64,000 nt of DNA from an uncultured Planctomycetaceae bacterium (GTDB taxonomy: Bacteria > Planctomycetota > Planctomycetia > Gemmatales > Gemmataceae), in NCBI GenBank assembly GCA_963823075.1, contig CAWGKE010000001.1:1395868-1459867 (forward strand). Reading direction: 5' to 3'. Below are positions 1-47,367 of the stretch, in pieces; positions within the stretch are counted from its first letter, which is position 1; every line of letters starts with the position of its first letter. The notes under the pieces were generated by a model that was not told the origin of the DNA, made no database searches, and saw only the letters and a list, made by a program, of their open reading frames with translations. Position numbers and translations under genes: made by a program.

Positions 1-332
1 GCTTGCCGGTCGGCGGTTGCAGGGTCCGCCCCAGCTCGGCCATTTCGGTCGCGCCGCCGGGCACGTGGGCGGAGTCGGCGGCGGCGGGCGCCTGCGGCGG
101 CGGGGCGGTCTGATTGCCAAGGTTGTCGCGGTCGCGGCGTTCCTCGGTGTGGTGGCGGGTGGTGTTGTTCATGACGGCGTTTCCTGGGGGGAAAGGGCGA
201 ACCCGGGAGAAAAGGGGCGAAAGCCGTGCCGACCCGGCGCGATCGGAGAAGCCCGACGAGCCCGCAGCGCCAAGCAAGGGCGAAACGGCTGCTCGTCCTT
301 GCTTGGCGCTGCGGGCTCGCCGAAGAAGCTGC

Positions 333-1985: not shown

Positions 1986-2672
1986 ATGTTACCGCGCGTC
2001 CTCGAACCCGAGGTGATGGATTCCGCCGAGGAAGCCCGCGACTACGATGCGATGGACCATTCGACGGTCAACCGCGTCTTCGTCACGGACTTCCTCGCCG
2101 TCTGGGACGGGACCAACCCGATCCTCGACGTGGGCGCCGGAACCGCACAGATCCCGATCGAACTGTGCCGCCAAAGCTCCACGGCCATCGTCACCTGCGT
2201 CGATCTGGCGGAACACATGCTGGCGGTCGGCCGCGACAACGTGGACCGGGCCGGCCTGCACGACCGCATCCGCCTGGAGCGCTGCGACGCCAAGCGGCTG
2301 CCGCACACGACCGGCGCCTTCGGGGCCGTGATCTCCAACAGCATCGTGCATCACATCCCCGAGCCGGCCGAGGCGCTGGCGGAGATGGTGCGCGTCGCGG
2401 CGCCGGGCGGCGTCCTGTTCGTGCGCGACCTGCTGCGGCCCGACGACGAAACGACACTGCGCCGCCTCGTCGAGCAGTACGCCGGCGGCGCCAACGCCCA
2501 TCAGCAAAAAATGTTCGCCGACTCGCTGTACGCCGCCCTGTCGCTGGCGGAGGTCCGCGAACGCATCGCCGCGCTTGGATTCGACCCCGCCGAAGTCCGC
2601 CCGACCACCGATCGGCACTGGACCTGGAAAGCAGTGGCGAGTGGCGAGTGGCGAGTGGCGAGTGGTCGTTGA
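1986..2672 (+). CDS. Class I SAM-dependent methyltransferase
   Basis: ATG at 1986. Motif I LDVGAGTAQIP and post-motif AVISNSIVHH. The C-terminal residues WKAVASGEWRVASGEWRVASGR are encoded by the left arm of a tandem-heptamer hairpin. Confidence 0.8.
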   Translation: MLPRVLEPEVMDSAEEARDYDAMDHSTVNRVFVTDFLAVWDGTNPILDVGAGTAQIPIELCRQSSTAIVTCVDLAEHMLAVGRDNVDRAGLHDRIRLERCDAKRLPHTTGAFGAVISNSIVHHIPEPAEALAEMVRVAAPGGVLFVRDLLRPDDETTLRRLVEQYAGGANAHQQKMFADSLYAALSLAEVRERIAALGFDPAEVRPTTDRHWTWKAVASGEWRVASGR

Positions 2673-2745
2673 CACTATTCCAATTCGGAACAGAGGTGGG
2701 GCGGCCGGCGCCCTGTTTTCACTCGCCACTCGCCACTCGCCACTA
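2633..2745. repeat. Hairpin whose stems are tandem heptamers, (GTGGCGA)4 and (TCGCCAC)3, around a ~55-nt loop
   Basis: Left arm 2633-2665 is the exact reverse complement of right arm 2721-2745. It overlaps the methyltransferase stop and the mlaE-like start. Probable terminator or structured element. Confidence 0.85.
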
Positions 2746-3509: not shown

Positions 3510-3819
3510 GACGGGCTTCTCCCTTCCTGCGAAATGGCGTGCGCATTTTTGGGCGGAGGAGCGGCGCCCGCGCGAGTGGCGCGGCGTCTGCCCGCCGGTG
3601 CTGCACGAAGTCAGCGACAAGATACTGCACTGGCGGGCTGACGCCGCGCCGCTCGCCGCTCGCACCGCCGAACGGCATGGATGTTGCCTAAAGGTTCTGC
3701 CGCTACCGGAGGCGGTTCCGGAATGCTTCCCGGACGCGCAAGGGTTTGCGATCCAACGGTTGGGCCGCGGCCCCCACCAGGGAAATCGACCTTCAGCCGC
3801 AAAAGAGGGAGTAGATCCA

Positions 3820-5453: not shown

Positions 5454-5524
5454 GTTCAGCCGCGACCCGACAGGGGAGCGGGTCTCGATGACGCGCTTTC
5501 CTGTCGGGTCGCGGCTGAACTTTT
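5454..5524. terminator. Rho-independent, bidirectional terminator (21-bp perfect stem plus T-run)
   Basis: GTTCAGCCGCGACCCGACAGG ... CCTGTCGGGTCGCGGCTGAAC followed by TTTT. It lies between convergent genes. Confidence 0.8.
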
Positions 5525-9665: not shown

Positions 9666-10646
9666 CTACTCGTTGGCGATGGAGTCGCAAAAGTGCCGGG
9701 CAAAGAAGAAGAGCCATTCGAGCTGGCTGTGCTGCAAGATGCTAACGTTGAAATCGTCCGGGACCACATCCAACGAGATGATGGAATTCAAGTCGCGGAT
9801 GGTGAAGGCGCAATCCTCCGGCTCCGTATCGCTGGGGGAAACGCAGGCCCGGATCAGGGCGCAGGCCATTTCCAGGAACGCCAGGCCGTTGTCCGCGAGG
9901 TGGTTCCACAGTTCGATCCCGATTCGGACGGCCACCCGAACCGTCACCTTTTCCTTGACGAAGGTGCAATCCCACCTGCCGTCCGGCCGGACAATGACGG
10001 CCGCTTGGGGCAGCTTTTCACCAATGTTCCGCAGGATGTGCCAGTCCTTCTTGTTGGACTGCTTCTTCGTTCCATAGAGGACGCCGTAGGTGAAGTCCAC
10101 CTGGGTCGTCCCGGCTTGCCGCGCCCAGCCGCGGGCGTGGGCGATAATGGCGTCGGCGATGTTTTCGCTCATCTCGTCGTTGAGGCAACGGGGGCCGCTC
10201 TTGAGAGTGGCGACCCGGAAAGGGTCGCTTCCCGGCTGCCGGCCGTCGAGGACGGACTCGGCCGAGTGCATCCCACTGGCCACGCACTCCCAACCGTAGA
10301 TAGGCAGGACCACCGTTTCCACCATGCGCCCGGCCGAAGTTTCCATCGACGAGAAGAGCTTTGCCGGGAGAATGTCTTGCTCGATCTCATAGACGTGCCG
10401 GTAGGACTTTTTGAAGGTGTGGAATAGGAGGACGAACGGATTGGTGTTGAACTTGGCGAAGAGCGCGCTCTCCAACGGCAGCGACTCGACGTGGGCGGAG
10501 ATGCGCCGCCGGAAGTCCGTCTCCATTTTCAGCACGCGATTCACCGCATCCTGGTCCGCGTCGAGCGTTGCAAGCGACTCCAGGAGGCCGCTCTTTTTGA
10601 TTTCCAGGGCCTTTGGTCTTGGCATGCCGGCGTGCGAGCGAGCCAT
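9666..10646 (-). CDS. Putative type II restriction endonuclease (family unassigned), cognate to the adjacent C5-MTase
   Basis: ATG at 10646 overlaps the MTase stop (TGATG), consistent with translational coupling. It sits between dcm and vsr. No known domain is recognisable by eye. Confidence 0.5.
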   Translation of the reverse strand: MARSHAGMPRPKALEIKKSGLLESLATLDADQDAVNRVLKMETDFRRRISAHVESLPLESALFAKFNTNPFVLLFHTFKKSYRHVYEIEQDILPAKLFSSMETSAGRMVETVVLPIYGWECVASGMHSAESVLDGRQPGSDPFRVATLKSGPRCLNDEMSENIADAIIAHARGWARQAGTTQVDFTYGVLYGTKKQSNKKDWHILRNIGEKLPQAAVIVRPDGRWDCTFVKEKVTVRVAVRIGIELWNHLADNGLAFLEMACALIRACVSPSDTEPEDCAFTIRDLNSIISLDVVPDDFNVSILQHSQLEWLFFFARHFCDSIANE

Positions 10647-12001
10647 CACGGCCCCCCTTCGATTTCGCGGACCTTCCGCTGCGTTTTTGCGGCGCGGTAC
10701 GTGGGGTTGCCGTTCTCCTGGCCGTCCTTCCAGAGGAAGGTCTTGCCGTTCTTGAACCATTGCCGGGTACGGATGTGAGACTTCACATACACGACCCGAC
10801 AAGCCGGGTGTTCGCCCGTGGCGGCCGTCATGCCGGCCTCATAGATCGCATCCAGCTCCTGCGCGACCAGTTGGCCGCACACCTGGCCCAATCGCACGGG
10901 CACGGCGTTGCCCACCTGGGCGTACTGCTCCACGGTCTTGCCGGAGAACTCCCAATCGTCGGGGAATTCCTGCACGCGGGCGCACTCCCGTAAAGTCAGC
11001 GCTCGCGTTTCCGTGGGGTGGCAAAGGGAAGTGCTGGCGTGGTTCGGCATCGTCACGATGGTCGGGCAGGGCAGGTCGAACGTCAAGCGGCGCCACCAGC
11101 CGGATCGGCCCCCTTTCGCGCTGTACGCCTTACCCATCGACTCCTTGGCCACCTCGGCGGGCAACGATCTCCAGTTGCTGCCGGGCGGAATCATCGCCAG
11201 GTATTTCTTCTTCCGTGGGCTGAAATCCATGATAACGGGTTCGGCCTCGACCAGCCCGGCCAAGGCCTCGCCCAGGGTGCGGAAGGGCATGAAGCGCTCC
11301 GGCGGCTCCTCGAACAGAGACCGCTGCACCCCTTCGACGCCTCCCTCCATTCCATGCGTCGGCGCGGGGAATTCAACGAGCCGGTTAAAGCGGTTCCCGA
11401 CGAAGATGGCCCGCTCCCGCAGCTGCGGCGCGCCGTAGTTGACGGCGTTGACCTCGAAGGCGTCGATCCGATAGGCGTACCGGAGGTCAAGCAGGAACGA
11501 CTGTATCACGGAGCCGGGTTGCTCGTCGGGTTCCAGCGGCGGGCCGCCCTTGTCCGGCCGGTCCTTGATGGGGCGGTGCCGCAGGGCCGCCGACATCAAC
11601 CCACGGACGTTCTCCATCACGAACATCTTGGGTCGGAAGTGCTGAACGTAGCGAAGGAACTGCCACAGCAGCGTCCCCCGAGGGTCTTGGACCGTGGCCC
11701 GCTTGCCCGTGGTGCTGAAAGTCTGGCATGGCGGGCCGCCCACGATCAGGTCCAGTTGGCCGGGTTCGAGGCCAACGTCGTCCATGACCCGCTGGGGGTC
11801 CAGACCCCCGATGTCGCCCTCATAGACCTTGAAGTCGCGGTTGCTCACGCGGCCCGCGTCGCGGTTGCCCCGGATCGTCGCGCAGAATGCGGGCGCCTTC
11901 TCCACGCAAGCCAGCAGCTTGAACCTTCCCGTCTTAGCCAGGCCGATGTCGAAACCCATGCCGCCGCTGAACAGGGAAAGCACTGCGTACTGTCTAGTCA
12001 A
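10646..12001 (-). CDS. dcm: DNA (cytosine-5)-methyltransferase
   Basis: Motif I LFSGGMGFD, motif IV GGPPCQTFS, motif VI ENV and motif X QVGNAVPV. 451 aa with a short C-terminal extension. Confidence 0.9.
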   Translation of the reverse strand: MTRQYAVLSLFSGGMGFDIGLAKTGRFKLLACVEKAPAFCATIRGNRDAGRVSNRDFKVYEGDIGGLDPQRVMDDVGLEPGQLDLIVGGPPCQTFSTTGKRATVQDPRGTLLWQFLRYVQHFRPKMFVMENVRGLMSAALRHRPIKDRPDKGGPPLEPDEQPGSVIQSFLLDLRYAYRIDAFEVNAVNYGAPQLRERAIFVGNRFNRLVEFPAPTHGMEGGVEGVQRSLFEEPPERFMPFRTLGEALAGLVEAEPVIMDFSPRKKKYLAMIPPGSNWRSLPAEVAKESMGKAYSAKGGRSGWWRRLTFDLPCPTIVTMPNHASTSLCHPTETRALTLRECARVQEFPDDWEFSGKTVEQYAQVGNAVPVRLGQVCGQLVAQELDAIYEAGMTAATGEHPACRVVYVKSHIRTRQWFKNGKTFLWKDGQENGNPTYRAAKTQRKVREIEGGP

Positions 12002-15755: not shown

Positions 15756-16367
15756 TTGTCCATTCAGACTTTGGAACTCGCCGTCGTCAAGGTCGGCGGC
15801 AGCCTCTACGATCTGCCCGACCTCGGCCCGCGTCTGCAAGCCTGGCTGCCCCATGTCGGGCCAAACGTCTTGCTTGTTCCGGGCGGCGGCCCGACCGCCG
15901 ACGTGGTGCGCGATTTCGACCGCATCCACCGGCTCGGCGAGGAACGGGCGCACTGGCTGGCCCTCGGCGCCTTGCAGCTCAACGCCCACTTCCTGACGTG
16001 GCTGCTGCCGTCGGCGGCGGTCATCGACCATCCCGAACAGGCGGCCGGCGGCGTCGCCATCCTCAACGCCTTTTCGTTCCTCAGCCGCGAAAAGGCCGCC
16101 TGCCGCAAAGGGCGGCTGCCGCACTGCTGGGCCGTCACCAGCGACGCCATCGCCGCCCGCGCCGCCGTCGTCGCGGGGGCGGCGGAACTCATCCTGCTCA
16201 AGTCCGTCGCCATTCCCGAGGGCATGAGTTGGGAAGAGGCGGCCCGAAGCGGCTTCGTCGATGAGTGGTTCGCGCCGACGCTGCGCGAGGCCACGTCGTC
16301 GTTGCGGGTGCGGGCCGTCAACTTCCGCGAGTGGCAAAAGATACGCCCGTCGGAGCCGCGACCGTAA
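15756..16367 (+). CDS. Amino-acid kinase family protein (Asp/Glu/uridylate kinase fold), probably H4MPT-associated
   Basis: VVKVGGSL glycine-rich kinase motif. TTG start is uncertain. Ends ...SEPRP inside a palindrome. Confidence 0.55.
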   Translation: MSIQTLELAVVKVGGSLYDLPDLGPRLQAWLPHVGPNVLLVPGGGPTADVVRDFDRIHRLGEERAHWLALGALQLNAHFLTWLLPSAAVIDHPEQAAGGVAILNAFSFLSREKAACRKGRLPHCWAVTSDAIAARAAVVAGAAELILLKSVAIPEGMSWEEAARSGFVDEWFAPTLREATSSLRVRAVNFREWQKIRPSEPRP

Positions 16368-16415
16368 GGGAGCGGTTTTCGCTGACACCGCTCCCTTACG
16401 GTCGCGGCTCCGACG
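16348..16415. terminator. 29-bp perfect inverted repeat that holds the stop codons of both convergent genes
   Basis: CGTCGGAGCCGCGACCGTAAGGGAGCGGT / ACCGCTCCCTTACGGTCGCGGCTCCGACG. Because of it, both converging proteins end in the peptide SEPRP. Confidence 0.8.
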
Positions 16416-17136
16416 TGGCCTCGACCAGGCCGCGCACCTTCTCCGCATCCACGGCGGCGGTCCGCAGCAACCCCTGGCAGGCGGCGCCGCGCACCGCGAA
16501 CCAGTCGGGGTCCGTCGGCCTCAGCGTGCGGATCAGACTGCGGCTCAGCGATCCCGCCAGAGCGATCCGCACGCCAGCGTCGCGGCAGGCCCGGCACAGG
16601 CGGTCGATCTCGACGCGGCTCATCCAGTCCAGCAGCGTCAGGCCGTCCTTGCCCCAGGTGTCGAGCAGGAGGCCCCAGCCCGGCCGGCGGCTTACAAACG
16701 TACACACCTCGTCCGGCGTGGGCGCCCGCGCTCGCCGCCAGTCGGCGTAGGCGACGACGGCCACTTTGCAGAGGGGATTCGCCTTCCATACGGCCTCGGC
16801 CAGCGCCTCCAGCTGCGCCGGCCACGACGGCGATTCTTCCCCCGCGCTGCCGGCCAGGCCGCACTTGACGAAGGAGAGCGACCCGAGGCCGGCGGGCAGC
16901 GTCCTTACGGTTGCGGCACGGTCTGGAGACCGTGCCGCAACCTGGCGCAGCTCGCCCAGCGCGGCGCTGACCGGCGCCCGTCCGGCGACCGCCCGCACCA
17001 CGTCGGCGATCGCGGCGTCGTCGGCCCGGCCGAGCGCGCCGCGGGCCGGCTCCTTCACGTCGATCAGGGCCGCGCCGCCGGCCAGGGCCGCCTCCGCCTC
17101 CGCCGCTGAACGCACGCTCACTAACAGTGCCGTCAT
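16396..17136 (-). CDS. DUF556 / MfnB-like (5-formylfuran-3-yl)methyl phosphate synthase homolog (H4MPT biosynthesis)
   Basis: N-terminus MTALLVSVRSAAEAEAALAGGAALIDVKEP matches the MfnB/DUF556 aldolase-type TIM-barrel start. Confidence 0.65.
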   Translation of the reverse strand: MTALLVSVRSAAEAEAALAGGAALIDVKEPARGALGRADDAAIADVVRAVAGRAPVSAALGELRQVAARSPDRAATVRTLPAGLGSLSFVKCGLAGSAGEESPSWPAQLEALAEAVWKANPLCKVAVVAYADWRRARAPTPDEVCTFVSRRPGWGLLLDTWGKDGLTLLDWMSRVEIDRLCRACRDAGVRIALAGSLSRSLIRTLRPTDPDWFAVRGAACQGLLRTAAVDAEKVRGLVEATSEPRP

Positions 17137-17549
17137 GCCTGCTTCTCCGGCGCGTCATCGACGGTGAAGAAGCGGACGTTGCCGGGGTAGGGACGGAACG
17201 GCAGCGGCCGGGCGTTGGCGAAGACGAATCCGTACAGCCGCGGCAGCTGGAACCACGACGGGTCGTTGAGGTGCTTGGCACGGTCGGCGACGAACAGCTG
17301 CGGCGAGCGGTAGGCGACCACGCCGGTCAGGTCGGCGGCGCCGATCACGCCGCCGGCCAGCTGCGCCGCCGCGCGCAATTCCGGCGGCACCTGCGCCCAC
17401 GCTTCCGGCCGCGGGTCCGGAACGCGAGCGGCGTGGATCAGCACGGGGCCGCGGCGTTTCGTGGCCCAGCGGCGCACCTCGATCGTCTTGCGGCCATGCA
17501 CCAGCAGGGCCGCCCACGGCTGTTTCAGCGACAGAGCGTAATGCGTCAT
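17133..17549 (-). CDS. ASCH domain protein
   Basis: 138 aa. The LKQPWAALLVHGRKTIEVR beta-barrel start is typical of ASCH/PUA-like proteins. Confidence 0.65.
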   Translation of the reverse strand: MTHYALSLKQPWAALLVHGRKTIEVRRWATKRRGPVLIHAARVPDPRPEAWAQVPPELRAAAQLAGGVIGAADLTGVVAYRSPQLFVADRAKHLNDPSWFQLPRLYGFVFANARPLPFRPYPGNVRFFTVDDAPEKQA

Positions 17550-17562
17550 CGCTCAGGAGTCG

Positions 17563-17670
17563 GCAGGGTCAGGGGTCGGGAGGTCAGAGGACCGCATTGC
17601 ATTGTATGCCGGCTGCGTTCGGGCGGCGCCGCTGACCCCTGACCCCTGACTCCTGACCCCTGACTCCTGA
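17563..17670. repeat. Imperfect hairpin with heptamer-repeat stems, (CAGGAGT/CAGGGGT)n versus (TGACCCC/TGACTCC)n
   Basis: Lies directly upstream of the kinase gene. It shares the same repeat unit as the hairpin at 21413-21512. Confidence 0.8.
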
Positions 17671-17805
17671 TTCCCATTTGCGGCCCGCCGCGCCGCAAGC
17701 TATGGTTTGGTGCATAATGTCGGGAGGCCGGCGCACTCCCCCGGTCCAACGTCCGTCCCGTCCCGAGGACGGACGACCCGCGCCCGCGCCCCGCGAGACG
17801 TACTC

Positions 17806-20800
17806 ATGGCGGTCCGGATCGAAAGCCAGGCCGAGCCAATCCCAGGCTATAAGCTCATCGAGCGCCTGGGCGGCGGCGGCTTTGGCGAAGTCTGGAAATG
17901 CGAGGCGCCCGGCGGGCTGCACAAAGCCATCAAGTTCGTCTTCGGCGATCTGTCCGCCGCGGTCTCCGACTCCGTCACCGACCACGGCGACGACGGCCAC
18001 CGCGCCAAGCAGGAACTCAAGGCCCTCAGCCGCGTCAAGACGGTCCGCCATCCCTTCATCCTCTCGCTCGAACGCTACGACATCATCGACGGCCAGCTCA
18101 TCATCGTCATGGAGCTGGCCGACCGCAACCTCTGGGACCGCTTCAAGGAGTGCCGCGCCCGCGGCCTGCCCGGCATCCCGCGCGACGAGCTGCTCGGCTA
18201 CATGGAAGAGGCGGCCGAGGCGCTGGACCTGATGAACAACACGTACCAGCTGCAGCACCTCGACATCAAACCGCAGAACCTCTTCCTCGTCTACCAGCAC
18301 GTCAAGGTGGCCGACTTCGGCCTGGTCAAGGACCTCGAAGGCGTCCAGGCGTCCGTCACCGGCGGCGTCACGCCGGTCTACGCCGCCCCCGAAACCTTCG
18401 ACGGCTGGGTCAGCCGCTTCAGCGATCAATATAGTCTGGCCATCGTCTATCAGGAGCTGCTCACCGGCCGCCGGCCGTTCAACGGCGCCAACGTCCGCCA
18501 GCTGATCGTGCAGCACCTCCAGGCCGCGCCCGACGTCACGCCGCTGCCGCCGGCCGACCAGCCGGCCATCGCCCGGCGCTGGCCAAGAACCCGGACGAGC
18601 GCCACCCGACCTGCCAGGAAATGGTCCAGCTGCTGCGCCGGGCCGGCCGGCCTTCCGACGATGCGCAAGGCCCCTCCGAGCGCTTGCGCGAACCGGCTCG
18701 CCCGGCCGCGCCACTTCCGCCGCTCGACCCGATCCAGACGCTCGAGCGCGACGTTGGGCCGCCCAGCACGTTCCAGGAGGCCGCCACCGCCAGCATCCGT
18801 CGCGGGCCGGCCGACTCCCACCCCGGCCTGACGCTCTCCATCCGCGCCCTCGAAGGGGCCGTCCTCCAGGAGTCCGTCGCCTCGATCCGCAAGGCCCCGA
18901 CGGAGGTGCGCGGCGACGGCGCCCTGTTCCCCGCGCTGATCGTCGGCGTCGGCGCCGTGGGCATGACCGTTTTGCAGCGGCTGCGCGAGAGCCTGCATCG
19001 CCGCTTCGGCTCCGTGTCCCAGGCGCCGCACCTCCGCCTGCTGCTGCTCGACACCGACCCCGAGGTGGTGCGCTCGGCGACGGCCGGCCGGCCGGGCGCC
19101 GCCCTGGCCGGCGGCGACGTGCTGCTGACGCCGCTCAACCGGCCCAGCTACTACCTCCGGCCGCGCGACGGCCGGCCCAAGCTCGACGGCTGGCTCAACC
19201 CGCGGATGCTCTACCGCATCCCGCGCTCGCAGGTGACGACCGGCGTGCGGGCCCTGGGCCGCCTCGCCTTCTGCGACAACTACCGCGCCATCGTCCGCCG
19301 CCTCCAGACGGAGTTGGACGCCTGCCTGGAACCGAACGCCCTGCCGGGCGCCGCCCGCCAGTCGGGCCTCGGCCTCCGCACCAATCGGCCGCGCGTCTAC
19401 GTCGTCGCCAACCTGGCGGGCGGCACCGGCGGCGGCGTCTTCCTCGACCTGGCCTACACGCTCCGCGCCATGCTCCGCCAGATGGGCTACGCCCAGCCCG
19501 ACGTGGTCGGCCTCTTGCTGCTGCCGCCCGTGGACCGCCACCGCACTCGCGTCCTGCCGCTCGGCAACGCCTGCGCCGCCCTCACCGAATTGATCCATTA
19601 TTCCTCGCCCAAATCCGTCTTCACGGCCCGCTACCACGAGCGCGAGGCGCCGGTGCAGGACCCCGACCCGCCGTTCAGCCGCTGCTTCTTGCTGCAGATG
19701 CCGGACGAGGCCGACGAGACGGCGACGCGCGAGCTGGTCGATTCGGCCGGTCAGTTCCTCCACCGCGACCTCTGCTCGCCCCTGGGCCAGGCGGCCGACC
19801 TGGGCCGGGCCGGCCTGTCGGGGCCGCCGTGGGACCAGCGCGGCATGTTCTACCAGACGTTCGGCCTGTATCACCTGGCCTGGCCGCGGCACGCGCTGCT
19901 GCGCGAGGCCGGCCGCCGCCTCTGCCAGCGTCTCTTGCAGCGCTGGATAAGCAAGGACAGCAAGCCGCTGCGCGAGGCGGTGCAGGTTTGGGTCCAGGAA
20001 CAGTGGGCGCACCACGAGATGGGCGCCGACGCGATGATCGGCCGGCTGCGCGACGCTTGCCAGGACTTCCTGCGCCAGGCCCCCGAGGACGCCTTCGCCG
20101 CGATCGTCGAGCCGCTGGCCCGCTATCATGCGGCGGCCGGACGGGCCGGATCGCGTCCGCGCCCGGACGCGCCCCTCCCTCCCAACCCTCCCCCCGCGGG
20201 TGGGGGAGGGCAGGGTGGAGGGGCCCCCGACGCGGCGGCGGTGCTGGCGGAGCTGGAGGAGATGTTCGGCAGCCCGCGCGAGGAGGGCATGGGCGAGAAC
20301 GCCGGCGCCCTGGTGCGCCGGCTGCGCGAGGCGTCCGAGGAGGCGGTCGCCGATTGGGGGCAAAAGCTCGCGGAAATATCCGTTCATCTGATCGAGGAGC
20401 CGGAGTACCGGCTGGCCGGCGCCGAGGAGGCGGTGCGTCAGGTGGTGGCGACGATCGAGCAGATCCTGCAACGGCACGAGCCGCTGGGCGCGAGCTGGCG
20501 GCGAAGGCCGCGGAGGGGCACGCCCGGTTGCAGGCGGCGCTCGCGCCGGCGAAGCCCGGCGCCCGGCGCCCGGTCCTGCCGCCCGCCGAGGTCGCGGAAC
20601 TGCTGCGCGCCTACCCGAAATGGCGTTTCCAGAGCCTGGTAATGCAGCAGGCGTCGGCCGCGTTTTTGAGCCTGCGCGGCCACCTGTCCGACGAGCTGCG
20701 GGAAATCAACTTCTGCCGCGTGCGCCTGGCCGAGCTGCAACGGCTGCTGGAGGCGCCGTCCGACGCGGCCGAGACGGAAGCCCGGGCCGGCCGGCTCGTG

Positions 20801-21409
20801 CTGCCGGCGGGGTGCAAGGACATGGCGCAGGCCGTGGACGGCTTCCTGGCCGGCGTGACGCCGGAGGCGCTCTTGGAGCTGGACGTGCGGACGCAGACCG
20901 TCATCCGCGGGCAGTTCGTCGCGCTGGTCCACGTCTGCCTGGCCAGCGCCAACCTGCTGAAGAACGTCGAGACGGCGATGGTGGAGACGGCCCAGGCGTT
21001 CGCCGGCGAGCTGTTGGGCGAGACCAACGCGGCGGAGCTGTTCCTGCAACAGCACCCCGACCAGGAGGAGGCCATGGACGAGGCGGCGTCCTTCTTCAAC
21101 GAGGCCCATCCCGAGCTGGCGCCCGCCAAGGCCGCCCCCGCGTCCGAGATCTGCGTCCTGGCCGCGCCGCCGGGGCCGGCCGGCGACCGCTTCCGCGAGC
21201 TGACGCGAACCGCCCTGCCCGACGTCGAGTTCGCGCCGGCCGCCAGCGAGGACGACATCCTGTTTTACCGCGAGGTTTCCCATCTGCCGCTGGCCGAGCT
21301 GGAACAGCTCGGCCCGGCCGGCCTCGACGCCTACCGCCAGATGAGCGCCGCCGAGGACTTCACGCCGCACACTCGCATCGACGTGGACTTCGGCGCCCCT
21401 TCCCGCTGA
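17806..21409 (+). CDS. Ser/Thr protein kinase fused to a large C-terminal region that includes a tubulin/FtsZ-like GTPase domain. At least two frameshifts, near 18575 and 20480
   Basis: Kinase motifs GGGGFGEVWK, AIK, HLDIKPQNLF and ADFGL. The APE/ALAKNPDERHPT end of the kinase continues in the next frame after a missing G in CCCGGG near 18575. Downstream motifs are FtsZ-like: LIVGVGAVGMTVLQRL (T1-like) and VVANLAGGTGGGVFLDLAY (matching the tubulin signature [SAG]GGTG[SA]G). There is a third frame switch near 20480. Confidence 0.65.
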
Positions 21410-21412
21410 ATT

Positions 21413-21512
21413 CAGGAGTCAGGAGTCAGGAGCGGCAGCCGTGGCGTCCAAGGCGTCCGACGGCAGCTGACCCTATACAATTCCCTACTGACTCCTGACT
21501 CCTGACTCCTGA
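21413..21512. repeat. Hairpin whose stems are tandem heptamers, (CAGGAGT)3 and (TGACTCC)3
   Basis: Left arm 21413-21441 and right arm 21489-21512. It sits between the kinase stop and the M16 peptidase start. Confidence 0.85.
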
Positions 21513-21529
21513 TTGGAGAGGATGCTCCC

Positions 21530-24289
21530 ATGTCCCGATTGCTCCGCTCGCGTCTCGTCTGGACGCTTCTCGTGCTGGCGCCCGCCGCCCTGCTGACGAT
21601 GGCCCGCGCCGACGCCCCGAAGGAGGCGCCCGCCGAGGACGCCGCCCTCAAGGCCGCCTCCGCCCTCTACGACGGCGTTCGCGTCGAGACCCTCGACAAC
21701 GGCCTCAAGGTCTATCTCAAGCCGGTGCCCAAGTCGCCCGTCGTCACCACCATGGTCGCCTACAAGGTCGGCTCGGCCGACGAGGACCTCGACCACACCG
21801 GCCTGTCGCACTACCTCGAACATCTCATGTTCAAGGGCACCGACAAGATCCTGCCCGGCGACATCGACCGCATCACCTTCCGCAACGGCGGCGCCAATAA
21901 CGCCTATACCGATACGGATTACACCATATTCCACTTCGACTTCCCCTACGACCGCTGGGAGGCGGCCCTGGAGATCGAGGCCGACCGGATGCGCAACCTG
22001 CGCATCGACGACAAACACGAGTTCCAGCAGGAGAAGGGCGCCGTCATCAACGAGCTGCAGCGCGACGAGGACGAGCCGTGGGACCTGGAGGAGAAAACGA
22101 TCCTGCCGGCCCTGTTCGGCGCGGACGGCCCGTACGGCCATCCGGTCATCGGCCTGAAACAGCAGGTCCGCGACGCCACCGCCGAGGTCATCAAGGCCCA
22201 CTACGACAAGTGGTACCACCCCAACAACGCCTCGCTCGTCGTCTGCGGCGGCTTCGACCCCGACATGGCGCTGGCGAAGATCAAAGAGCTGTTCGGCCCC
22301 ATCCCGAAGGCGGAATTGCCGGAGCGCAAAAGGCTTTCGAGGGAGCAGCCGAAGCGGCCCGAGCGGGTCGCGATGGACTCGAAGTTCGCCGTGCCGCGGA
22401 TGCTGATGACCTGGAACACGGTGGACAGCAAGAGCGACGACTACCCGGCCCTGACCGTGCTGGAGGCGCTGTTGAACGGTCGCACCAGCCGGCTCTACAA
22501 GAAGCTGATCGAGGGCGAACAGGTCGCCTCGTCCGTCTCCGCCAGCCACAACGCCGGCCGCTACCCCGGCTGGTTCGAGATCGACCTGGAGCTGTACGAC
22601 AAGAAGGACGGCGACCGCACGGAGAAGCTGGTGCTGGACGAGCTGAAGAAGCTGGCCGACCAGCCGGTTTCGGACGCCGAGCTGGCGCGGGTGCGGCGGC
22701 AGCTTGTGGCCGGCGCCGTGTTCGGCCGCGAGAGCGTCCACGCCCTGGCCGACAGCATCGCCAAGGGCGTCACCACCAACGACCTCGACTGGCTCAAGAC
22801 CGTGCTGCCGCGCATGTTGGCCGTCACGCCCGCCGACCTCCAGCGCGTCGTCAAGACCTATCTCGATCCGGAAAAGCGCGTGGTCTTGTGGTCGGTCCCC
22901 AAGGGTGAAGGGGCGAGCGGCCGGCGTGAGCCGGCTGATGGGGTCTATCAGCCGGCTCACGCCGGCCGCTCGTCGCGCACCGCCGCGGTCGGCGGCGACT
23001 TCCCGCTCCAGGACGTGAAGCGCGTCGAGCTGCCCAACGGCCTGACGCTGCTCCTCTACGAGGACCACCGCCTGCCGATCATCACCGCCCAGGCGGAGCT
23101 GCACCGCGTCAACGCTTATGAGACGGACGACAAGCTCGGCGTGTCGGCGCTGACCGGCCTTCTGTTGCAGGAGTCCTCGAAGAAGCACAGCGGCCCGGAA
23201 ATCGCCGACCTGATCGAGGGCGTCGGCGGCTCGCTGGAGCTGGGCGCCGGCGGCGGCACGGTGCGCGTGCTGGCGCCGGATCGCTCGCTGGGCCTGGGGC
23301 TGCTGTTCGAGTGCCTGACGCAGCCGGCCTTCGCCAAGGAGGACTTCATGCGCCAGCAGCAGATTCTGCTCTCGACGCTCAAGGACATGGAGACGCAGCC
23401 GGAGTCGATGGCCGAGCGCACCTTCCAGGCGATGGTCTACGGCAAGCACCCGCGCGGCCGGCCGGCGATGGGCACGGTCAAGACGGTGGAGGCGCTGACG
23501 CCGGCCGACTGCGCCGCCTTCCATGAGAAGGTGTTCACGCCGTCCAACGTGACGCTGGCGATCGTCGGCGACTTCGACGCCAAGGAGGCGACGGAGGAGA
23601 TCGCAAAGCTGACGGCCGACTGGAAGAAGACGGACCTGGAAACGCCGCAATATCCGAAGGTGGAGATGCCCAAGGAGTTCACGCAGAAGATCATCTCCAT
23701 GCCGGAGTCGGCCCAGCTGCATTTCTACATCGGCCACGTCGGCGTCCGGCGCGACAACCCGGACTATTACAAGCTGCTGGTGATGGACTACGTTTTGGGC
23801 GTCGGCCCCGGCTTCACGGATCGGCTGTCGGCCCGGCTGCGCGACCGCGAGGGCCTGGCCTACACGGTGCGCGGCACGATCACGGGGTCGGCGGACCTGG
23901 AGCCGGGCGCGTTCACCGGCTACATCGGCACGGACAGCGACAATTTCGACCGCGTAAAGAAGGAGTTCCTGGAGGAGCTGAACCGCATCCGCGACACGGC
24001 GCCCAAGCCGCAGGAGGTGGAGGACGCGAAGACGTATCTGGTCGGCAGCCAGAGCCTGCGTTTTTCGACCTCGGCGGAGGTGGCCGGCCAGATGCTGTAC
24101 GTGGACCGCTACCACCTCGGCGCCGACTACCTGAGCGACTATCGCAAGGCGGTGATGGCGGTGACGCCGGAGGACGTGCAGGCCGTGGCGAAGAAGTACC
24201 TGGACCCGGACCACATGGTGATCGTGGCGGCCGGCGCCGTGGACGCGACGGGCAAGCCGACGAACAAGCTGCCGGCGCCGAAGCCGTGA
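21530..24289 (+). CDS. M16-family zinc metallopeptidase (pitrilysin/insulinase-like) with two tandem M16 units
   Basis: Signal peptide. Inverted zinc motif HYLEHLMFKGT (HxxEH). 919 aa, with a second inactive-type M16 repeat. Confidence 0.85.
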   Translation: MSRLLRSRLVWTLLVLAPAALLTMARADAPKEAPAEDAALKAASALYDGVRVETLDNGLKVYLKPVPKSPVVTTMVAYKVGSADEDLDHTGLSHYLEHLMFKGTDKILPGDIDRITFRNGGANNAYTDTDYTIFHFDFPYDRWEAALEIEADRMRNLRIDDKHEFQQEKGAVINELQRDEDEPWDLEEKTILPALFGADGPYGHPVIGLKQQVRDATAEVIKAHYDKWYHPNNASLVVCGGFDPDMALAKIKELFGPIPKAELPERKRLSREQPKRPERVAMDSKFAVPRMLMTWNTVDSKSDDYPALTVLEALLNGRTSRLYKKLIEGEQVASSVSASHNAGRYPGWFEIDLELYDKKDGDRTEKLVLDELKKLADQPVSDAELARVRRQLVAGAVFGRESVHALADSIAKGVTTNDLDWLKTVLPRMLAVTPADLQRVVKTYLDPEKRVVLWSVPKGEGASGRREPADGVYQPAHAGRSSRTAAVGGDFPLQDVKRVELPNGLTLLLYEDHRLPIITAQAELHRVNAYETDDKLGVSALTGLLLQESSKKHSGPEIADLIEGVGGSLELGAGGGTVRVLAPDRSLGLGLLFECLTQPAFAKEDFMRQQQILLSTLKDMETQPESMAERTFQAMVYGKHPRGRPAMGTVKTVEALTPADCAAFHEKVFTPSNVTLAIVGDFDAKEATEEIAKLTADWKKTDLETPQYPKVEMPKEFTQKIISMPESAQLHFYIGHVGVRRDNPDYYKLLVMDYVLGVGPGFTDRLSARLRDREGLAYTVRGTITGSADLEPGAFTGYIGTDSDNFDRVKKEFLEELNRIRDTAPKPQEVEDAKTYLVGSQSLRFSTSAEVAGQMLYVDRYHLGADYLSDYRKAVMAVTPEDVQAVAKKYLDPDHMVIVAAGAVDATGKPTNKLPAPKP

Positions 24290-24309
24290 CCGCGACCGCC
24301 CACTCCGTT

Positions 24310-24367
24310 TAGCCGCTCTTCGCAGAAGAGCGCGTCCGCGACGCGCTCTTCTGCGAAGAGCGGCTAA
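24310..24367. terminator. 25-bp perfect palindrome terminator
   Basis: TAGCCGCTCTTCGCAGAAGAGCGCG / CGCGCTCTTCTGCGAAGAGCGGCTA, just after the peptidase stop. Confidence 0.75.
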
Positions 24368-24447
24368 CCGAGTCGGAGCAAAACCGACGTTGCGGCCGCC
24401 CTCGAAAGACGGTATCTCCCCACCGGAATCCGCTCGGGGGAGAAACG

Positions 24448-25451
24448 ATGCGTCATTCGTGGCTGCTTTTCGCGGCGGTGCTGGTCCCAAGTCCGACGTG
24501 GTGCGCGGTCGGCCGGGCCGCGCTGGAGGGCGATCCGCCGGCGTTCGACGCCGGGACCGTCCACGCCGGCGCACCGCTGTCGCACCGCTTCGTCCTGTCA
24601 AATCGCGGATCGGAAATCGTAGAAATCATCGAAACCCGACCGAGTTGCGGCTGCGCGACGGCGACGCCGGATCGGCGGCGATTCGCGCCGGGCGAAACGG
24701 GATCGCTGCTGCTGGCGGTCAACACGCTGACGCGCCGGACGGCCCCTCGTCGTGGGGCGTGACGCTGCGCTGCCGCTGCGGCGACCGCGTCGAGGAGACG
24801 ACGCTGACGCTGACGGCGCACGTGCGGGCCGACCTGTCGCTGGAGCCGTCGGCCTTGGTCGTCGAGACGGCCGGGGCGGTGGACCGTACCATCACGCTGA
24901 CCGACCGGCGGCAAGCGGCGATGAGCGTCAAGGTGGAGACGACGTGCCCGCAGGTGCGGGCGTCGGTGGACGCGCCGACCCCCCCTCCCAACCCTCCCCC
25001 CGCGGGTGGGGGAGGGCGGGGGTGGACATATGCGATCCATCTGGAGGCGCCGGCCGACCTGCCCGAGGGCCGGTACGACGAGACGCTGCATCTCTACACA
25101 TCCGACCCGGAATATCCTGATTTGAAGCTGCCGTTCACAATCGTGAAGCACGGCCGCCAGCGCGTGAGCGCGACGCCGGCGGCGGTGGAACTGACGGCCG
25201 CCTCGCCGTCGCGGCTGGTGCTGCTGCGGGGCGGCGAGGGCGACGGCGACGAGGTGGAGATCGGCGGCGTGGACGCGGACGCGGCGGTGCGGTGCGAGTG
25301 GACGCCGGGCCCGCGGCCGACGGCGGCGGTGCGGCTGCGTCTCGACGCCGCGAAGCTGCCGGCCGACGGAGTGAAAACGGTCGTGCATGTCCATCTCATC
25401 AAGCCGGCGGAGCAGACGGTGGACGTGCCGGTGACGTGGGGGCCGCGGTGA
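24448..25451 (+). CDS. DUF1573-domain secreted protein (frameshift near 24735)
   Basis: Signal peptide, then the DUF1573 pattern FDAGTV..G....RFVLSNRGSEIVEIIETRPSCGCA. The ORF continues in the +1 frame (24390 frame) after LAVNTLT. It contains the 34-nt GC palindrome at 24984-25017. Confidence 0.6.
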
Positions 25452-30785: not shown

Positions 30786-30884
30786 GAGACAAGGAGAAGA
30801 GGAGACAAGGAGACAAGGAGCGGCTGAAACGGTTGTCGTTTCATCCCCTCTCCTTGTCTCCTCTTCTCCTTGTCTCCTTGTCTG
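30786..30884. repeat. Hairpin whose stems are tandem octamers, (GAGACAAG) and (CTTGTCTC), with 35-bp arms
   Basis: GAGACAAGGAGAAGAGGAGACAAGGAGACAAGGAG .. loop .. CTCCTTGTCTCCTCTTCTCCTTGTCTCCTTGTCT. Confidence 0.85.
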
Positions 30885-41239: not shown

Positions 41240-41483
41240 ATGGCAAACTTAACTTGAGAGGCCCCGAAAACGGCCTGTTCTTGAACTGGGCGGCCCAGGA
41301 AAACGCCAGAAATCGCTTGTCCGCCGAGGGTCTCAAGTTGAGTTTGCCGTCCTAGTTTTTTCCTAGGATGGCAAACTTAACTTGAGAGGCCCCGAAAACG
41401 GCCTGTTCTTGAACTGGGCGGCCCAGGAAAACGCCAGAAATCGCTTGTCCGCCGAGGGTCTCAAGTTGAGTTTGCCGTCCTAG
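41236..41483. mobile_element. Tandem pair of ~120-bp palindromic MITEs (TIR CTAGGAYGGCAAACTTAACTTGAGA)
   Basis: Copies at 41236-41355 and 41363-41483, each internally inverted-repeat and separated by a T-run. Two more copies at 43096-43340. Confidence 0.85.
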
Positions 41484-41992
41484 TTTTTTTTTAACTCGGC
41501 AATGTCTTGGCGGGCTTGGGCTTGTTTCTCGGGGTTGCCGCGCAGGTAGCGGTAGGTCGGGCGATACAGGCGGATATCGATCTTGGCACAGAAACGCTGC
41601 ACGGCGCTGCGGGATGTCTGGATGCCTCTGGTCTTGAGCAGATAGTCGGCCAACTCCTCATGGGTCCAGTTGACCCGGTCCAGACCGCACGCGGCCGGCC
41701 CGTTGATGACCCAGCGTTTGACCTCGCCGGCCAGGTGGGTCGGGATTTTGGCTGGCGCCCCCTTCGGTTTGCGGGGGCGCAGACCGTCCAGACCCCGATC
41801 GAGGTAGACGTTGAGCCAGCGTTGGACGGTGCGTGGGGTGATGGCCAGGTCCTGGGCGATGTCCTGGTGGGGTCGATGGCGGCAGGCCAAGCGGATGATG
41901 GGGATGCGATCGCGGTACTTCGGGTCGGTCTCGTGGCGGAAGGCCTGGTCGAGACGTTGGCTTTCCTCCTGGGGCAGTCGGATGCGAATCAC
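41480..41992 (-). pseudogene. IS630-family transposase N-terminal (HTH) fragment, truncated by the MITE insertion
   Basis: 170 aa, homologous to the N-terminal half of the intact IS630 transposase. The stop TAG lies within the MITE TIR. Confidence 0.7.
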
Positions 41993-42080
41993 GTCAGGTC
42001 TGGTTCCTCCTTCGGGTCACTCGACCCCATTCATTCTACGCAACCAGACAAGCCTATCGGGTTTGTGTATCAGTAGAAAG

Positions 42081-42168
42081 CGGAGAGGGAGGGATTCGAA
42101 CCCTCGGTAGACTTGTCGTCCTCACCGGTTTTCGAGACCGGCCCGATCGGCCGCTCCGGCACCTCTCC
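42081..42168 (-). tRNA. tRNA-Ser(CGA)
   Basis: Acceptor GGAGAGG/CCTCTCC. Anticodon loop CTCGAAA. Long variable arm. T-arm GAGGGTTCGAATCCCTC. Confidence 0.8.
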
Positions 42169-47238: not shown

Positions 47239-47367
47239 GGGAGCGGTCCTCCAGGTGTCCCGGCGAACGGCCGGCGCGAGCCGGCGGGTGCGTCCCTCCG
47301 TCTGAGGCCCTATGCTATGCCAGCCGCCTCACGCCGGCCGTTCGCCGGGGACTTCGCCTTCGGCGCC

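What the first reader, a model, noticed from the sequence alone, without database searches (positions are those of the whole stretch)
17553..21515. Ser/Thr kinase fused to a tubulin/FtsZ-like GTPase domain, bracketed by matching tandem-heptamer hairpins
The 3.6-kb gene starts with a canonical Hanks kinase. It continues into a region with a glycine-rich T1-like loop (LIVGVGAVGMTVLQRL) and a tubulin-signature-like T4 loop (VVANLAGGTGGGVFLD). That makes it a eukaryote-like kinase coupled to a cytoskeletal-type GTPase in one polypeptide. Both flanks carry hairpins built from the same CAGGAGT/ACTCCTG heptamer unit (17563-17670 and 21413-21512). This could mark a mobile or recombination-delimited module, or paired terminators. 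Two frame switches, at ~18575 (missing G in CCCGGG) and ~20480, must be resolved to read the full protein.
Basis: partly seen in the sequence, partly recalled or inferred. Interest (0 to 1): 0.78.

Follow-up and report, generated by a model that had tools for sequence, protein, structure and literature searches.

The report
Known planctomycete kinase–tubulin-like fusion gene
This is an ordinary chromosomal copy of a fusion protein already described in Gemmata-type planctomycetes, a protein kinase joined to a distant FtsZ/tubulin relative; its two frame breaks look like sequencing errors, and the flanking hairpins are a common feature between genes in this genome, not the ends of a mobile unit.

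Summary
Three + strand ORFs (17806-21409) join into one 1,201-aa protein once a single base is restored at 18575/6 and at ~20487.

The protein has four parts:
- an active-looking Hanks kinase
- a disordered linker
- a helical C-terminal region with no structural match

The fusion is not new. More than 100 full-length homologues with the same architecture exist in Gemmataceae. Three papers (2010, 2023, 2024) already describe an N-terminal kinase on planctomycete FtsZ-like proteins. Its function has not been tested experimentally.

The frameshifts are most likely long-read assembly errors. A relative that is 94% identical and 48-64 orthologous reading frames read straight through both sites. All three frame segments show purifying selection. 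Another gene in the window is broken in the same way.

Both hairpins are real (z about -6.7). Similar hairpins built from inverted tandem 7-9-nt units occur elsewhere in the window and in related genomes, with different units. The gene sits in conserved synteny with its own conserved promoter-like motif. A mobile module is therefore not supported.

The orthologous downstream hairpin has changed its unit on both arms in a compensating way (CAGGAGT versus CAGTAGT). That is the most interesting side observation.

The parts
17553..17670 (.). Upstream hairpin. A degenerate left arm of (T)CAGG(A/G)G-type heptamers and a right arm of CTGAC(C/T)C x5.6 flank a loop of about 44 nt. It lies between the start codon of the divergent ASCH gene (17549, minus strand) and the kinase promoter-like motif.
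   Evidence: TRF and inverted-repeat scans. RNA fold -78 kcal/mol, z -6.7 on the + strand; -72.8, z -5.7 on the - strand. At the same site, L080 and L069 carry GAATGAT/GAACGAT units, and L001, L015, L007, L014 and L009 carry non-tandem palindromes.
17678..17706 (+). Conserved promoter-like motif TTGCGG, 17 nt, TATGGT. The block GCTATGGTT at 17699-17707 is invariant. It would give a 5' UTR of about 93 nt.
   Evidence: Alignment of 12 orthologous upstream regions: GCTATGGTT is invariant in 12 of 12 and ATTTGCG lies 16-17 nt upstream in most. The consensus scan did not flag it because the -35 hexamer matches only 3 of 6 positions. Promoter function is inferred.
17806..21409 (+). Gene for the 1,201-aa kinase-FtsZl1 (Tubulin_2) fusion protein. 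As assembled, it is split into three frames.
   Evidence: More than 100 full-length homologues of 1,150-1,230 aa cover 100% of the reconstructed protein and have Pkinase + PF13809.
17848..18602 (+). Hanks-type Ser/Thr kinase domain (aa 15-266). It has the G-loop GGGGFGEV (22-29), K43, E70, the non-RD catalytic loop HLDIKPQN (151-158), DFG (170-172) and APE (194-196).
   Evidence: Pfam PF00069 E 1.8e-26, 93.5 bits against a cutoff of 31.7. PDB kinases match down to E 1.4e-31. These residues are nearly invariant in 73 homologues.
18575..18576 (+). Frame break 1: one G missing from CCCGGG. The correct reading is IARALAKNPDERH, kinase subdomain XI.
   Evidence: L080 has CCCGGGCG. 64 orthologous reading frames run through the site. 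P0018, 92% identical, reads IARALAKNPDDRH.
18603..18935 (+). Low-complexity, predicted disordered linker (about aa 267-377).
   Evidence: AF2 pLDDT below 50 for residues 10-75 of the modelled segment. The consensus is poorly conserved here.
18936..19934 (+). FtsZl1 / Tubulin_2 nucleotide-binding domain (aa 378-710). It has a T1-like GVGAVG (381-386), a T2-like DTDPE (416-420), a T3-like TTGVRALGRLAF (478-489) and a T4 signature AGGTGGG (538-544).
19935..20486 (+). Helical middle region with a Pro/Gly-rich disordered insert (about aa 711-893).
   Evidence: AF2 secondary structure is all-helical after strand S6, with a low-pLDDT insert at model residues 526-533.
20487..20488 (+). Frame break 2: one base missing in a GC-repeat context. 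The correct reading is HEPLARELAAK.
   Evidence: L080 has CTGGCGCGCGAG. 48 orthologous reading frames run through the site. The family consensus here is HHEPLAREL.
20489..21406 (+). Conserved C-terminal domain (aa 896-1201): a long helix, a helical bundle and a small terminal alpha/beta unit. It has no known fold match.
21412..21512 (.). Downstream hairpin: (TCAGGAG)x3, a 55-nt loop, then CTACTGA + (CTCCTGA)x3. It lies between the kinase stop codon (21407-21409) and the SD/ATG of the M16 peptidase gene (ATG at 21530).
   Evidence: Fold -62.6 kcal/mol, z -6.7. Orthologous hairpins occur in L080 and L015 with unit CAGTAG(T/C) and in L001 with CAGGAGT/CAGGGGC.

Best explanation
The locus is a vertically inherited, single-gene chromosomal locus of a Gemmataceae planctomycete. 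It encodes a cytoplasmic protein of about 1,200 aa belonging to the kinase-fused subgroup of the FtsZ-like-1 (FtsZl1, Pfam Tubulin_2) family.

Shown:
- Domain order: a Hanks kinase with all catalytic residues (non-RD type, HLD), a disordered linker, a tubulin/FtsZ-fold nucleotide-binding domain with conserved T1 and T4 glycine loops, a helical region, and a conserved C-terminal domain of unassigned fold.
- The family is large and conserved.
- The gene sits in conserved synteny behind its own conserved promoter-like motif.

Inferred mechanism: the tubulin-like domain binds GTP and drives nucleotide-dependent self-association, probably helped by the helical and C-terminal regions. This concentrates or positions the kinase domains so that they phosphorylate each other, the tubulin-like module or nearby substrates. 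The fusion would thus hard-wire the kinase-to-FtsZ regulatory link that exists between separate proteins in other bacteria, and would act in membrane or cell-envelope remodelling in these FtsZ-less cells.

The two frame breaks are consensus errors of a long-read assembly, not biology.

The two hairpins belong to a class of intergenic hairpins found across the genome, built from inverted arrays of tandem 7-9-nt units. They most likely act on the transcript, as a 3'-end, stability or insulation structure between neighbouring genes. They evolve by slippage plus arm-to-arm correction and do not delimit a mobile element.

For: Motif conservation: G381, G383, G386 and AGGTG(S/G)G are invariant or nearly invariant.

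Family and literature:
- 120 of the 120 best hits listed carry PF13809, nearly all with Pkinase at full length.
- 3,218 clusters at 50% identity match the domain. Most of the top 150 place it at residues ~320-400 of proteins of ~1,150-1,250 aa.
- PMC9871819 and PMC11032199 say the same.

Synteny and promoter.

Frameshifts as artefacts:
- Both are 1-nt deletions relative to L080, and L080 has its own, different frame break in the same gene plus a split 4HFCP_synth gene.
- Orthologues read through both sites.
- pN/pS against L080 is 0.16 for the kinase segment, 0.43 and 0.53 for the middle segments and 0.23 for the C-terminal segment, across all three frames.
- A PLP-enzyme gene at 57241-58328(-) is broken into three frames.

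Hairpins as a general class:
- Other pairs lie at 2633-2744 (AGTGGCG units, just before the mlaE gene) and 30786-30883 (GAGACAAG units, between two minus-strand genes).
- 25 such pairs were found in 1.38 Mb of Gemmataceae loci.
- The window holds many further long intergenic palindromes.
- The unit changes in a compensating way at the orthologous site.
Against: No member of the FtsZl1 family has been characterised biochemically, so GTP binding, hydrolysis and polymerisation are all inferred.

The vWA-gene association typical of FtsZl1 operons is not seen next to this gene.

Without reads, a very recent real pseudogenisation cannot be excluded.

No transcript data exist for the hairpins. The upstream hairpin abuts the ASCH start codon, which fits a 5'-UTR or DNA-level role as well as any other.
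Confidence: 0.8

Rival explanations
1. The gene is a real, recently inactivated pseudogene: the two single-base deletions exist in the organism.
For: The sequence as given has two frame breaks, and no reads are available to check them. The close relative L080 also has a broken copy, at a different place.
Against: There is no stop codon or further damage anywhere in 3.6 kb once two bases are restored. pN/pS is 0.16-0.53 in all segments, including those downstream of the breaks. Another conserved gene in the window (PALP) and other genes in L080 are broken in the same way, as expected for long-read indel errors. Both sites lie in G/C runs.
Confidence: 0.12
2. The tubulin-like domain does not polymerise. 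It acts as a monomeric or dimeric nucleotide-binding switch or sensor that regulates the attached kinase in cis.
Against: The tubulin signature GGTG(S/G)G and a T3-like loop are strongly conserved. All closest structural relatives form filaments. The long conserved helical and C-terminal regions are typical of assembly or scaffold proteins.
Confidence: 0.35
3. The matching hairpins are the ends of a mobile or recombination-delimited cassette that carries the kinase gene.
For: Both flanks in this window use the same CAGG(A/G)GT unit. Hairpins at this site turn over between relatives.
Against: Upstream synteny is conserved across genomes 61-94% identical. A conserved promoter-like motif lies inside the 'cassette' in all 12 orthologues, whichever hairpin they carry. 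L080 has unrelated units at the two flanks. The two loops share no similarity. No transposase or integrase gene is adjacent. The same kind of hairpin flanks unrelated genes.
Confidence: 0.03
4. The frame changes are programmed recoding events: two -1 ribosomal frameshifts.
For: Both shifts are -1 in direction, and a -1 slip at each site would reproduce the orthologous protein sequence.
Against: Neither site has an X XXY YYZ slippery heptamer in frame. None of the more than 100 orthologues needs recoding. The 94%-identical relative has the extra base at both sites.
Confidence: 0.01
5. The hairpins are classical paired Rho-independent terminators that insulate the kinase gene.
For: The stems are very stable. 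The downstream hairpin starts 3 nt after the stop codon and is kept at that position in four related genomes.
Against: There is no U-tract, the loops are 44-55 nt and the arms 21-39 nt, so the terminator scan does not call them. The upstream hairpin lies between divergent genes, where no + strand transcript needs terminating. More distant orthologues lack a hairpin downstream.
Confidence: 0.2

Closest known systems
FtsZ-like 1 (FtsZl1) family, Pfam Tubulin_2 PF13809, in its planctomycete kinase-fused subgroup (Makarova & Koonin 2010, PMC2875224; Santana-Molina et al. 2023, PMC9871819; planctomycete STK survey 2024, PMC11032199)
   Same: The same Pfam domain matches at full length. The layout is the same: FtsZ-like domain, then a helical/coiled region, then an alpha-helical C-terminal domain. 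The N-terminal protein kinase domain is the one reported for Planctomycetes. NCBI already names the homologues 'tubulin-like domain-containing protein'.
   Different: Nothing essential differs. This copy shows no adjacent vWA, OmpA or GTPase operon partners, and the T4 loop reads GGTGGG instead of the family consensus GGTGSG.
Canonical FtsZ / CetZ / tubulin / TubZ / PhuZ filament-forming GTPases
   Different: No FtsZ_C or Tubulin_C domain and no recognisable T7 loop were found. Sequence similarity is too low for an HMM-to-PDB match or a confident profile alignment to E. coli FtsZ. There are large family-specific inserts between T1 and T4. Polymerisation has not been demonstrated.
Ser/Thr-kinase regulation of FtsZ by separate proteins (for example mycobacterial PknA phosphorylating FtsZ; cited from my own knowledge, not checked here)
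   Same: A Hanks kinase is functionally coupled to a tubulin-superfamily protein. Makarova & Koonin found FtsZl1 while studying kinases 'implicated in FtsZ phosphorylation'.
   Different: Here the two are one polypeptide, and the tubulin-like partner is FtsZl1, not FtsZ. No phosphorylation data exist.
Intergenic heptamer tandem repeats of other bacteria: cyanobacterial STRR-type heptamers and Beggiatoaceae TAACTGA repeats (PMC4679880)
   Same: Tandem 7-nt units lie in intergenic DNA, often within a few nucleotides of a start codon. Here the hairpins end 1-17 nt from start codons.
   Different: Those are mostly direct arrays of one genome-wide unit. Here each site has its own unit, and the arrays come as inverted pairs that form long hairpins.
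REP/BIME-type extragenic palindromes (PMC3733652)
   Same: Stable stem-loops between genes, proposed to act in mRNA stabilisation, termination and supercoiling. REP families are reported in Planctomycetes.
   Different: REPs are 20-40-bp near-identical copies spread by RAYT transposases. The tandem-unit hairpins here differ in sequence from site to site and are internally repetitive.

Membership tests
Hanks-type (eukaryote-like) Ser/Thr protein kinase, Pfam PF00069 | Profile match above the curated threshold over the whole catalytic domain | tested here: met
   93.5 bits against a cutoff of 31.7, residues 15-266 on profile positions 1-251 of 263. PDB bacterial STKs match down to E 1.4e-31.
Hanks-type (eukaryote-like) Ser/Thr protein kinase, Pfam PF00069 | Catalytic residues: G-loop, VAIK Lys, alphaC Glu, HRD Asp with K..N, DFG and APE | tested here: met
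   GGGGFGEV 22-29, K43, E70, HLDIKPQN 151-158 (the Asp is present; Arg is replaced by Leu, so this is a non-RD kinase), DFG 170-172, APE 194-196. These residues are nearly invariant in 73 homologues.
FtsZl1 / Tubulin_2 (PF13809) | Full-length profile match above threshold | tested here: met
   134.9 bits against a cutoff of 27, residues 378-710 on profile positions 1-354 of 356.
FtsZl1 / Tubulin_2 (PF13809) | Layout: FtsZ-like domain followed by an extended helical/coiled region and an alpha-helical C-terminal domain, with an N-terminal kinase in the planctomycete subgroup | tested here: met
   AF2 secondary structure of both models. Literature description. Homologue architectures.
FtsZl1 / Tubulin_2 (PF13809) | Operon association with vWA-domain, OmpA-like, GTPase or kinase genes | tested here: inconclusive
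   The kinase partner is fused. No vWA gene is adjacent in the window, where the neighbours are ASCH upstream and an M16 peptidase downstream. A VIT/VWA gene lies about 4 kb downstream on the opposite strand in L080. DUF58/VWA_2-BatA genes lie directly downstream in one 75%-identical homologue's locus only.
FtsZ/tubulin superfamily (canonical filament-forming GTPases) | Fold of the N-terminal GTP-binding domain | tested here: met
FtsZ/tubulin superfamily (canonical filament-forming GTPases) | Signature loops: T1 (glycine-rich) and T4 (GGGTG[ST]G) | tested here: met
   GVGAVG (381-386) and AGGTGGG (538-544). The family consensus is AGGTGSG. The glycines are invariant or nearly invariant.
FtsZ/tubulin superfamily (canonical filament-forming GTPases) | C-terminal activation domain with the T7 loop that completes the neighbour's GTPase site | tested here: not met
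FtsZ/tubulin superfamily (canonical filament-forming GTPases) | GTP binding and hydrolysis, and polymerisation | not testable with these tools
   This needs biochemistry. No solved structure of any family member is detectable by sequence.
Intrinsic (Rho-independent) terminator | Short GC-rich stem, 3-8-nt loop and a U-tract | tested here: not met
   The terminator scan does not call either hairpin. Loops are 44-55 nt and no T-run follows.
REP / MITE-type dispersed repeat | Many near-identical copies at unrelated sites | tested here: not met
   The CAGGAGT-type unit occurs only at the two flanks within the window. Other tandem-unit hairpins use unrelated units. The whole genome was not available to search.
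Known anti-phage defence systems (PADLOC) | Match of the non-kinase parts to a defence protein model | tested here: not met
   Only the kinase domain matches generic kinase models. The tubulin-like and C-terminal segments have no hits.

The most novel reading that the evidence does not exclude
The kinase-FtsZl1 fusion is a true filament- or lattice-forming, self-phosphorylating cytoskeletal element. It takes part in FtsZ-independent (budding) division or in the internal membrane remodelling of Gemmataceae. Assembly uses the helical and C-terminal regions in place of the missing T7 loop and C-terminal domain. Separately, the inverted tandem-heptamer hairpins could be an undescribed class of self-homogenising RNA-level regulatory elements between genes.
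Probability: 0.15. Interest if true: 0.7.

Novelty: already known. Interest (0 to 1): 0.25.

Why it matters
The protein family is of real interest. Gemmata-type planctomycetes lack FtsZ, divide by budding and have elaborate internal membranes. A conserved, multi-copy protein that welds a eukaryote-like kinase to a tubulin-superfamily domain is an obvious candidate for their unexplained cell biology, and nobody has tested it.

That case was made in 2010 and repeated in 2023 and 2024, so this window adds one more orthologue, and one damaged by assembly errors. Its practical value is threefold:
- It shows that the contig needs polishing.
- It provides confident structural models showing that only the N-terminal half of the tubulin fold is present.
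- It gives a clean example of an intergenic hairpin whose repeat unit has been replaced on both arms at once between close relatives.

Tried and rejected
- A profile built from kinase-less relatives, searched against PDB sequences, found only coiled-coil noise. No solved relative is detectable by sequence.
This is not usable as evidence.
- Rfam gave only sub-threshold eukaryotic miRNA-precursor models on the hairpins, which reflects generic hairpin resemblance.
- The sigma-70 consensus scan found no promoter in the region. The promoter-like motif rests on conservation only.
- PADLOC showed no defence-system membership beyond generic kinase similarity.
- A metagenome scan for (TCAGGAG)x3 returned at least 120 contigs with GC from 35 to 67%. 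Only 12 of 54 matches more than about 300 nt from a contig end have an inverted partner nearby. The unit itself is therefore not diagnostic of anything, and I did not pursue it.
- A GC3 frame plot of the window was too noisy to list frameshifts. I replaced it with tblastn of orthologous reading frames.
- I considered a link between the frameshift sites and the window's m5C methyltransferase / EcoO109I-like system, through methylation-induced basecalling errors. Neither site contains RGGNCCY, so I dropped the idea.


Full report
**What is in the sequence.** The + strand between 17707 and 21409 carries three overlapping ORFs in three different frames. The first ends in the sequence expected for kinase subdomain XI only if a base is added: the window reads ATCGCCCGGCGCTGGCCAAG. 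Inserting one G after 18576 gives IARALAKNPDERHPTC. The second switch lies near 20487. With one base restored at each place, the region from the ATG at 17806 to the TGA at 21407-21409 is a single 1,201-codon ORF with no stop.

**Are the frameshifts real?** A metagenomic contig, L080, is 93-94% identical in DNA to window 15774-25451 and has the same gene order.
- Aligned to it, the window lacks one base at each of the two sites: CCCGGGCG becomes CCCGGCG, and CTGGCGCGCGAG becomes CTGGGCGCGAG.
- L080 reads through both sites but has its own frame break in a low-complexity stretch of the same gene, and its 4HFCP_synth gene is split in two.
- Stop-free reading frames taken from 80 related loci and compared with the window by tblastn switch frame at ~18576 in 64 cases and at ~20487 in 48. 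The orthologues are therefore continuous there.
- Differences between the window and L080 give pN/pS of 0.16 (kinase), 0.43 and 0.53 (middle) and 0.23 (C-terminal). All three frame segments have evolved under purifying selection.
- A PLP-dependent enzyme gene at 57241-58516 on the minus strand is cut into pieces. Two of them hold Pfam profile positions 4-189 and 234-295, and the stretch between them matches the orthologue in a third frame.

Private single-base indels in conserved genes of two closely related contigs are the pattern expected from long-read consensus errors. I put this at about 0.85, a real recent pseudogene at about 0.12, and programmed recoding at about 0.01. Recoding is unlikely because there is no slippery site and no orthologue needs it.

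**What the protein is.** Pfam gives Pkinase (residues 15-266, E 1.8e-26) and Tubulin_2 PF13809 (residues 378-710, E 5.2e-39, profile positions 1-354 of 356). NCBIfam adds only generic kinase similarity.

The kinase has the G-loop, K43, E70, the catalytic loop HLDIKPQN, DFG and APE. The HRD arginine is replaced by leucine throughout the family, which makes this a non-RD kinase.

I modelled window residues 18621-20486 (622 aa) with an alignment of 72 homologues. The core is confident, with 228 residues at pLDDT 90 or more. The linker before it is disordered.
- Foldseek against the PDB returns CetZ, FtsZ, tubulins and TubZ at the top, all at probability 1.00, with a best E of 3.5e-5.
- Only 189-226 residues align, and the model is all-helical after the sixth strand.

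So the N-terminal nucleotide-binding half of the tubulin fold is present, but the C-terminal activation domain with the T7 loop is not. This agrees with Makarova & Koonin, who could not find T6-H7 in this family, and with PMC9871819, which notes the lack of FtsZ_C and Tubulin_C.

The glycines of GVGAVG and of AGGTG(S/G)G are invariant or nearly so in 73 close homologues and in 20 more distant ones.

**How common and how known.**
- The 120 best database hits all carry PF13809, almost all with Pkinase and 100% coverage, at 54-78% identity. They come from Gemmataceae, and NCBI names them 'tubulin-like domain-containing protein'.
- An exhaustive search of representatives at 50% identity finds 3,218 related clusters. 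Most of the top 150 place the domain at residues ~320-400 of proteins of ~1,150-1,250 aa, which is the kinase-fused form.
- Several MAGs hold two or more paralogues.
- Santana-Molina et al. (2023) repeat this.
- A 2024 survey of planctomycete kinases found the tubulin-like domain to be the commonest partner among domains found only in cytoplasmic kinases.

The fusion is therefore already known, though only from sequence analysis.

**Context.** Upstream, the order AA_kinase, 4HFCP_synth, ASCH (minus strand), then the kinase gene is kept in L080, L082 (61% identical protein) and L083 (63%, where no separate ASCH gene was called). The downstream neighbour varies: an M16 peptidase here and in L080, ScpA in L082, and others elsewhere.

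An alignment of 12 orthologous upstream regions shows an invariant GCTATGGTT, with ATTTGCG 16-17 nt before it, and a conserved CGAGACG..TCATGG at the start codon. I read the first pair as a TTGCGG-17-TATGGT promoter (17678-17706). That is an inference from conservation. The gene thus looks like a stable, separately transcribed chromosomal gene.

**The hairpins.** Both are real and far more stable than shuffled controls. They are not specific to this gene.
- The window has further inverted arrays of tandem units at 2633-2744 (AGTGGCG, ending 1 nt before the mlaE ORF) and at 30786-30883 (GAGACAAG, between two minus-strand genes).
- A strict scan of 1.38 Mb of Gemmataceae loci finds 25 such pairs with many different 7-9-nt units.
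- The window also holds more than ten other intergenic palindromes of 25-37 bp.

At the two sites flanking this gene, relatives carry hairpins of other kinds.
- Upstream, L080 and L069 have GAATGAT/GAACGAT units, and L001, L015, L007, L014 and L009 have long non-tandem palindromes.
- Downstream, the four genomes that keep the kinase-to-M16 arrangement all have a tandem-heptamer hairpin, but the unit is CAGGAGT here, CAGGAGT/CAGGGGC in L001, and CAGTAG(T/C) in L080 and L015.
- The G-to-T difference on the left arm is matched by C-to-A on the right arm in every unit. The window keeps one CTACTGA unit of the other type at 21485-21491.

This points to homogenisation within and between arms, and to selection or a mechanism that preserves pairing. 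Neither hairpin has terminator features, and neither matches an Rfam family. I favour a transcript-level role in stability, 3'-end formation or insulation, without direct evidence. The mobile-module idea is not supported.

**Mechanism.** Shown: the domain composition, the conservation of the catalytic and nucleotide-loop residues, the tubulin-type fold of the N-terminal half-domain, the absence of the canonical activation domain, and the conserved C-terminal domain.

Inferred: GTP binding; nucleotide-dependent self-association that positions or activates the kinase; and a role in membrane or division-related remodelling. This last role was suggested for FtsZl1 by its operon partners in other phyla. 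A plausible rival is a non-polymerising nucleotide switch that controls the kinase in cis.

**Verdict.** The hairpin interpretation is wrong and the novelty is low. The gene is an orthologue of a family described in 2010, in a contig that needs polishing.

Noticed in passing
window 2633-2744 and 30786-30883; loci L009, L011, L018, L021, L035, L052, L053, L056, L059, L061, L070, L079: There is a recurrent class of intergenic hairpins in Gemmataceae. Two inverted arrays of tandem 7-9-nt units flank a loop of 2-110 nt. Each site has its own unit, and several units share a TCAGNNG core. In the window they end 1-17 nt from a start codon. Fold z-scores are -8.7 and -9.9. My literature searches found no description of them in planctomycetes.
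   Followed up: partly
window 21412-21512 compared with L080 9578-9685, L015 13538-13816 and L001 6912-6982: The orthologous hairpin after the kinase stop codon has swapped its unit on both arms together. It is CAGGAGT/ACTCCTG here, CAGTAGT/ACTACTG in L080 and L015, and a mixed form with G-T pairs in L001. One unit of the other type (CTACTGA) remains in the window at 21485-21491. This suggests concerted evolution of all units on both arms.
   Followed up: partly
L080 5575-5800 and L015 13585-13745: In two relatives the loop or body of the orthologous hairpin is interrupted by a further long palindromic element. In L080 the hairpin's loop and right arm are duplicated on both sides of an insert of about 240 nt. 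In L015 a nested palindrome of about 150 nt sits in the loop. Hairpin loops may be preferred insertion sites for other palindromic elements.
   Followed up: no
window 17678-17707 (and 17792-17811): The promoter-like motif TTGCGG-17 nt-TATGGT has GCTATGGTT invariant in 12 orthologous loci. A conserved CGAGACG..TCATGG lies at the start codon. The motif also forms a small stem, TTTGCGGC...GCCGCAAG.
   Followed up: partly
window 57241-58516 (minus strand): A PLP-dependent enzyme gene next to ThiS and ThiF/MoeB genes is split over three frames. Pfam PALP positions 4-189 and 234-295 lie in two different ORFs, and the stretch between them matches the orthologue in a third frame. These are probably further assembly indels.
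   Followed up: partly
window 22914-22972: A perfect 26-bp palindrome (CGAGCGGCCGGCGTGAGCCGGCTGAT, 7 nt, then its complement) lies inside the M16 peptidase ORF, in the linker between its two halves. The same sequence type forms the intergenic hairpin upstream of the kinase gene in L007. It looks like a palindromic element inserted in frame.
   Followed up: no
window 254-322, 3572-3656, 5454-5520, 16348-16415, 24306-24370, 47259-47349: Long (29-31 bp) near-perfect intergenic palindromes with short loops lie at many gene ends, for example between the convergent AA_kinase and 4HFCP_synth genes and just after the M16 peptidase stop. They may be this genome's usual gene-end structures.
   Followed up: no
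window 41234-43378: An insertion sequence with a transposase split into an HTH ORF (41480-41992) and a DDE_3 ORF (42553-43080), both on the minus strand. Two tandem copies of a 127-128-nt palindromic unit flank it at each end, in inverted orientation.
   Followed up: partly
window 9666-12001 (minus strand): A restriction-modification pair: a C-5 cytosine methyltransferase (10646-12001) and an EcoO109I-like endonuclease (9666-10802). The two ORFs overlap by 157 nt in different frames.
   Followed up: no
metagenome loci L084-L163: Exact (TCAGGAG)x3 arrays occur in at least 120 metagenome contigs with GC from 35 to 67%. Only 12 of 54 matches more than about 300 nt from a contig end have an inverted partner within 300 nt, mostly in contigs with GC near 0.6 or higher. 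The unit itself is widespread and not specific to planctomycetes.
   Followed up: partly
loci L004/L040, L005/L044, L013/L042, L024/L075, L011/L056, L026/L070: Single MAGs carry two kinase-Tubulin_2 genes at very different identity to the query, for example 57% and 34%. The fusion has therefore diversified into paralogues within Gemmataceae genomes.
   Followed up: no
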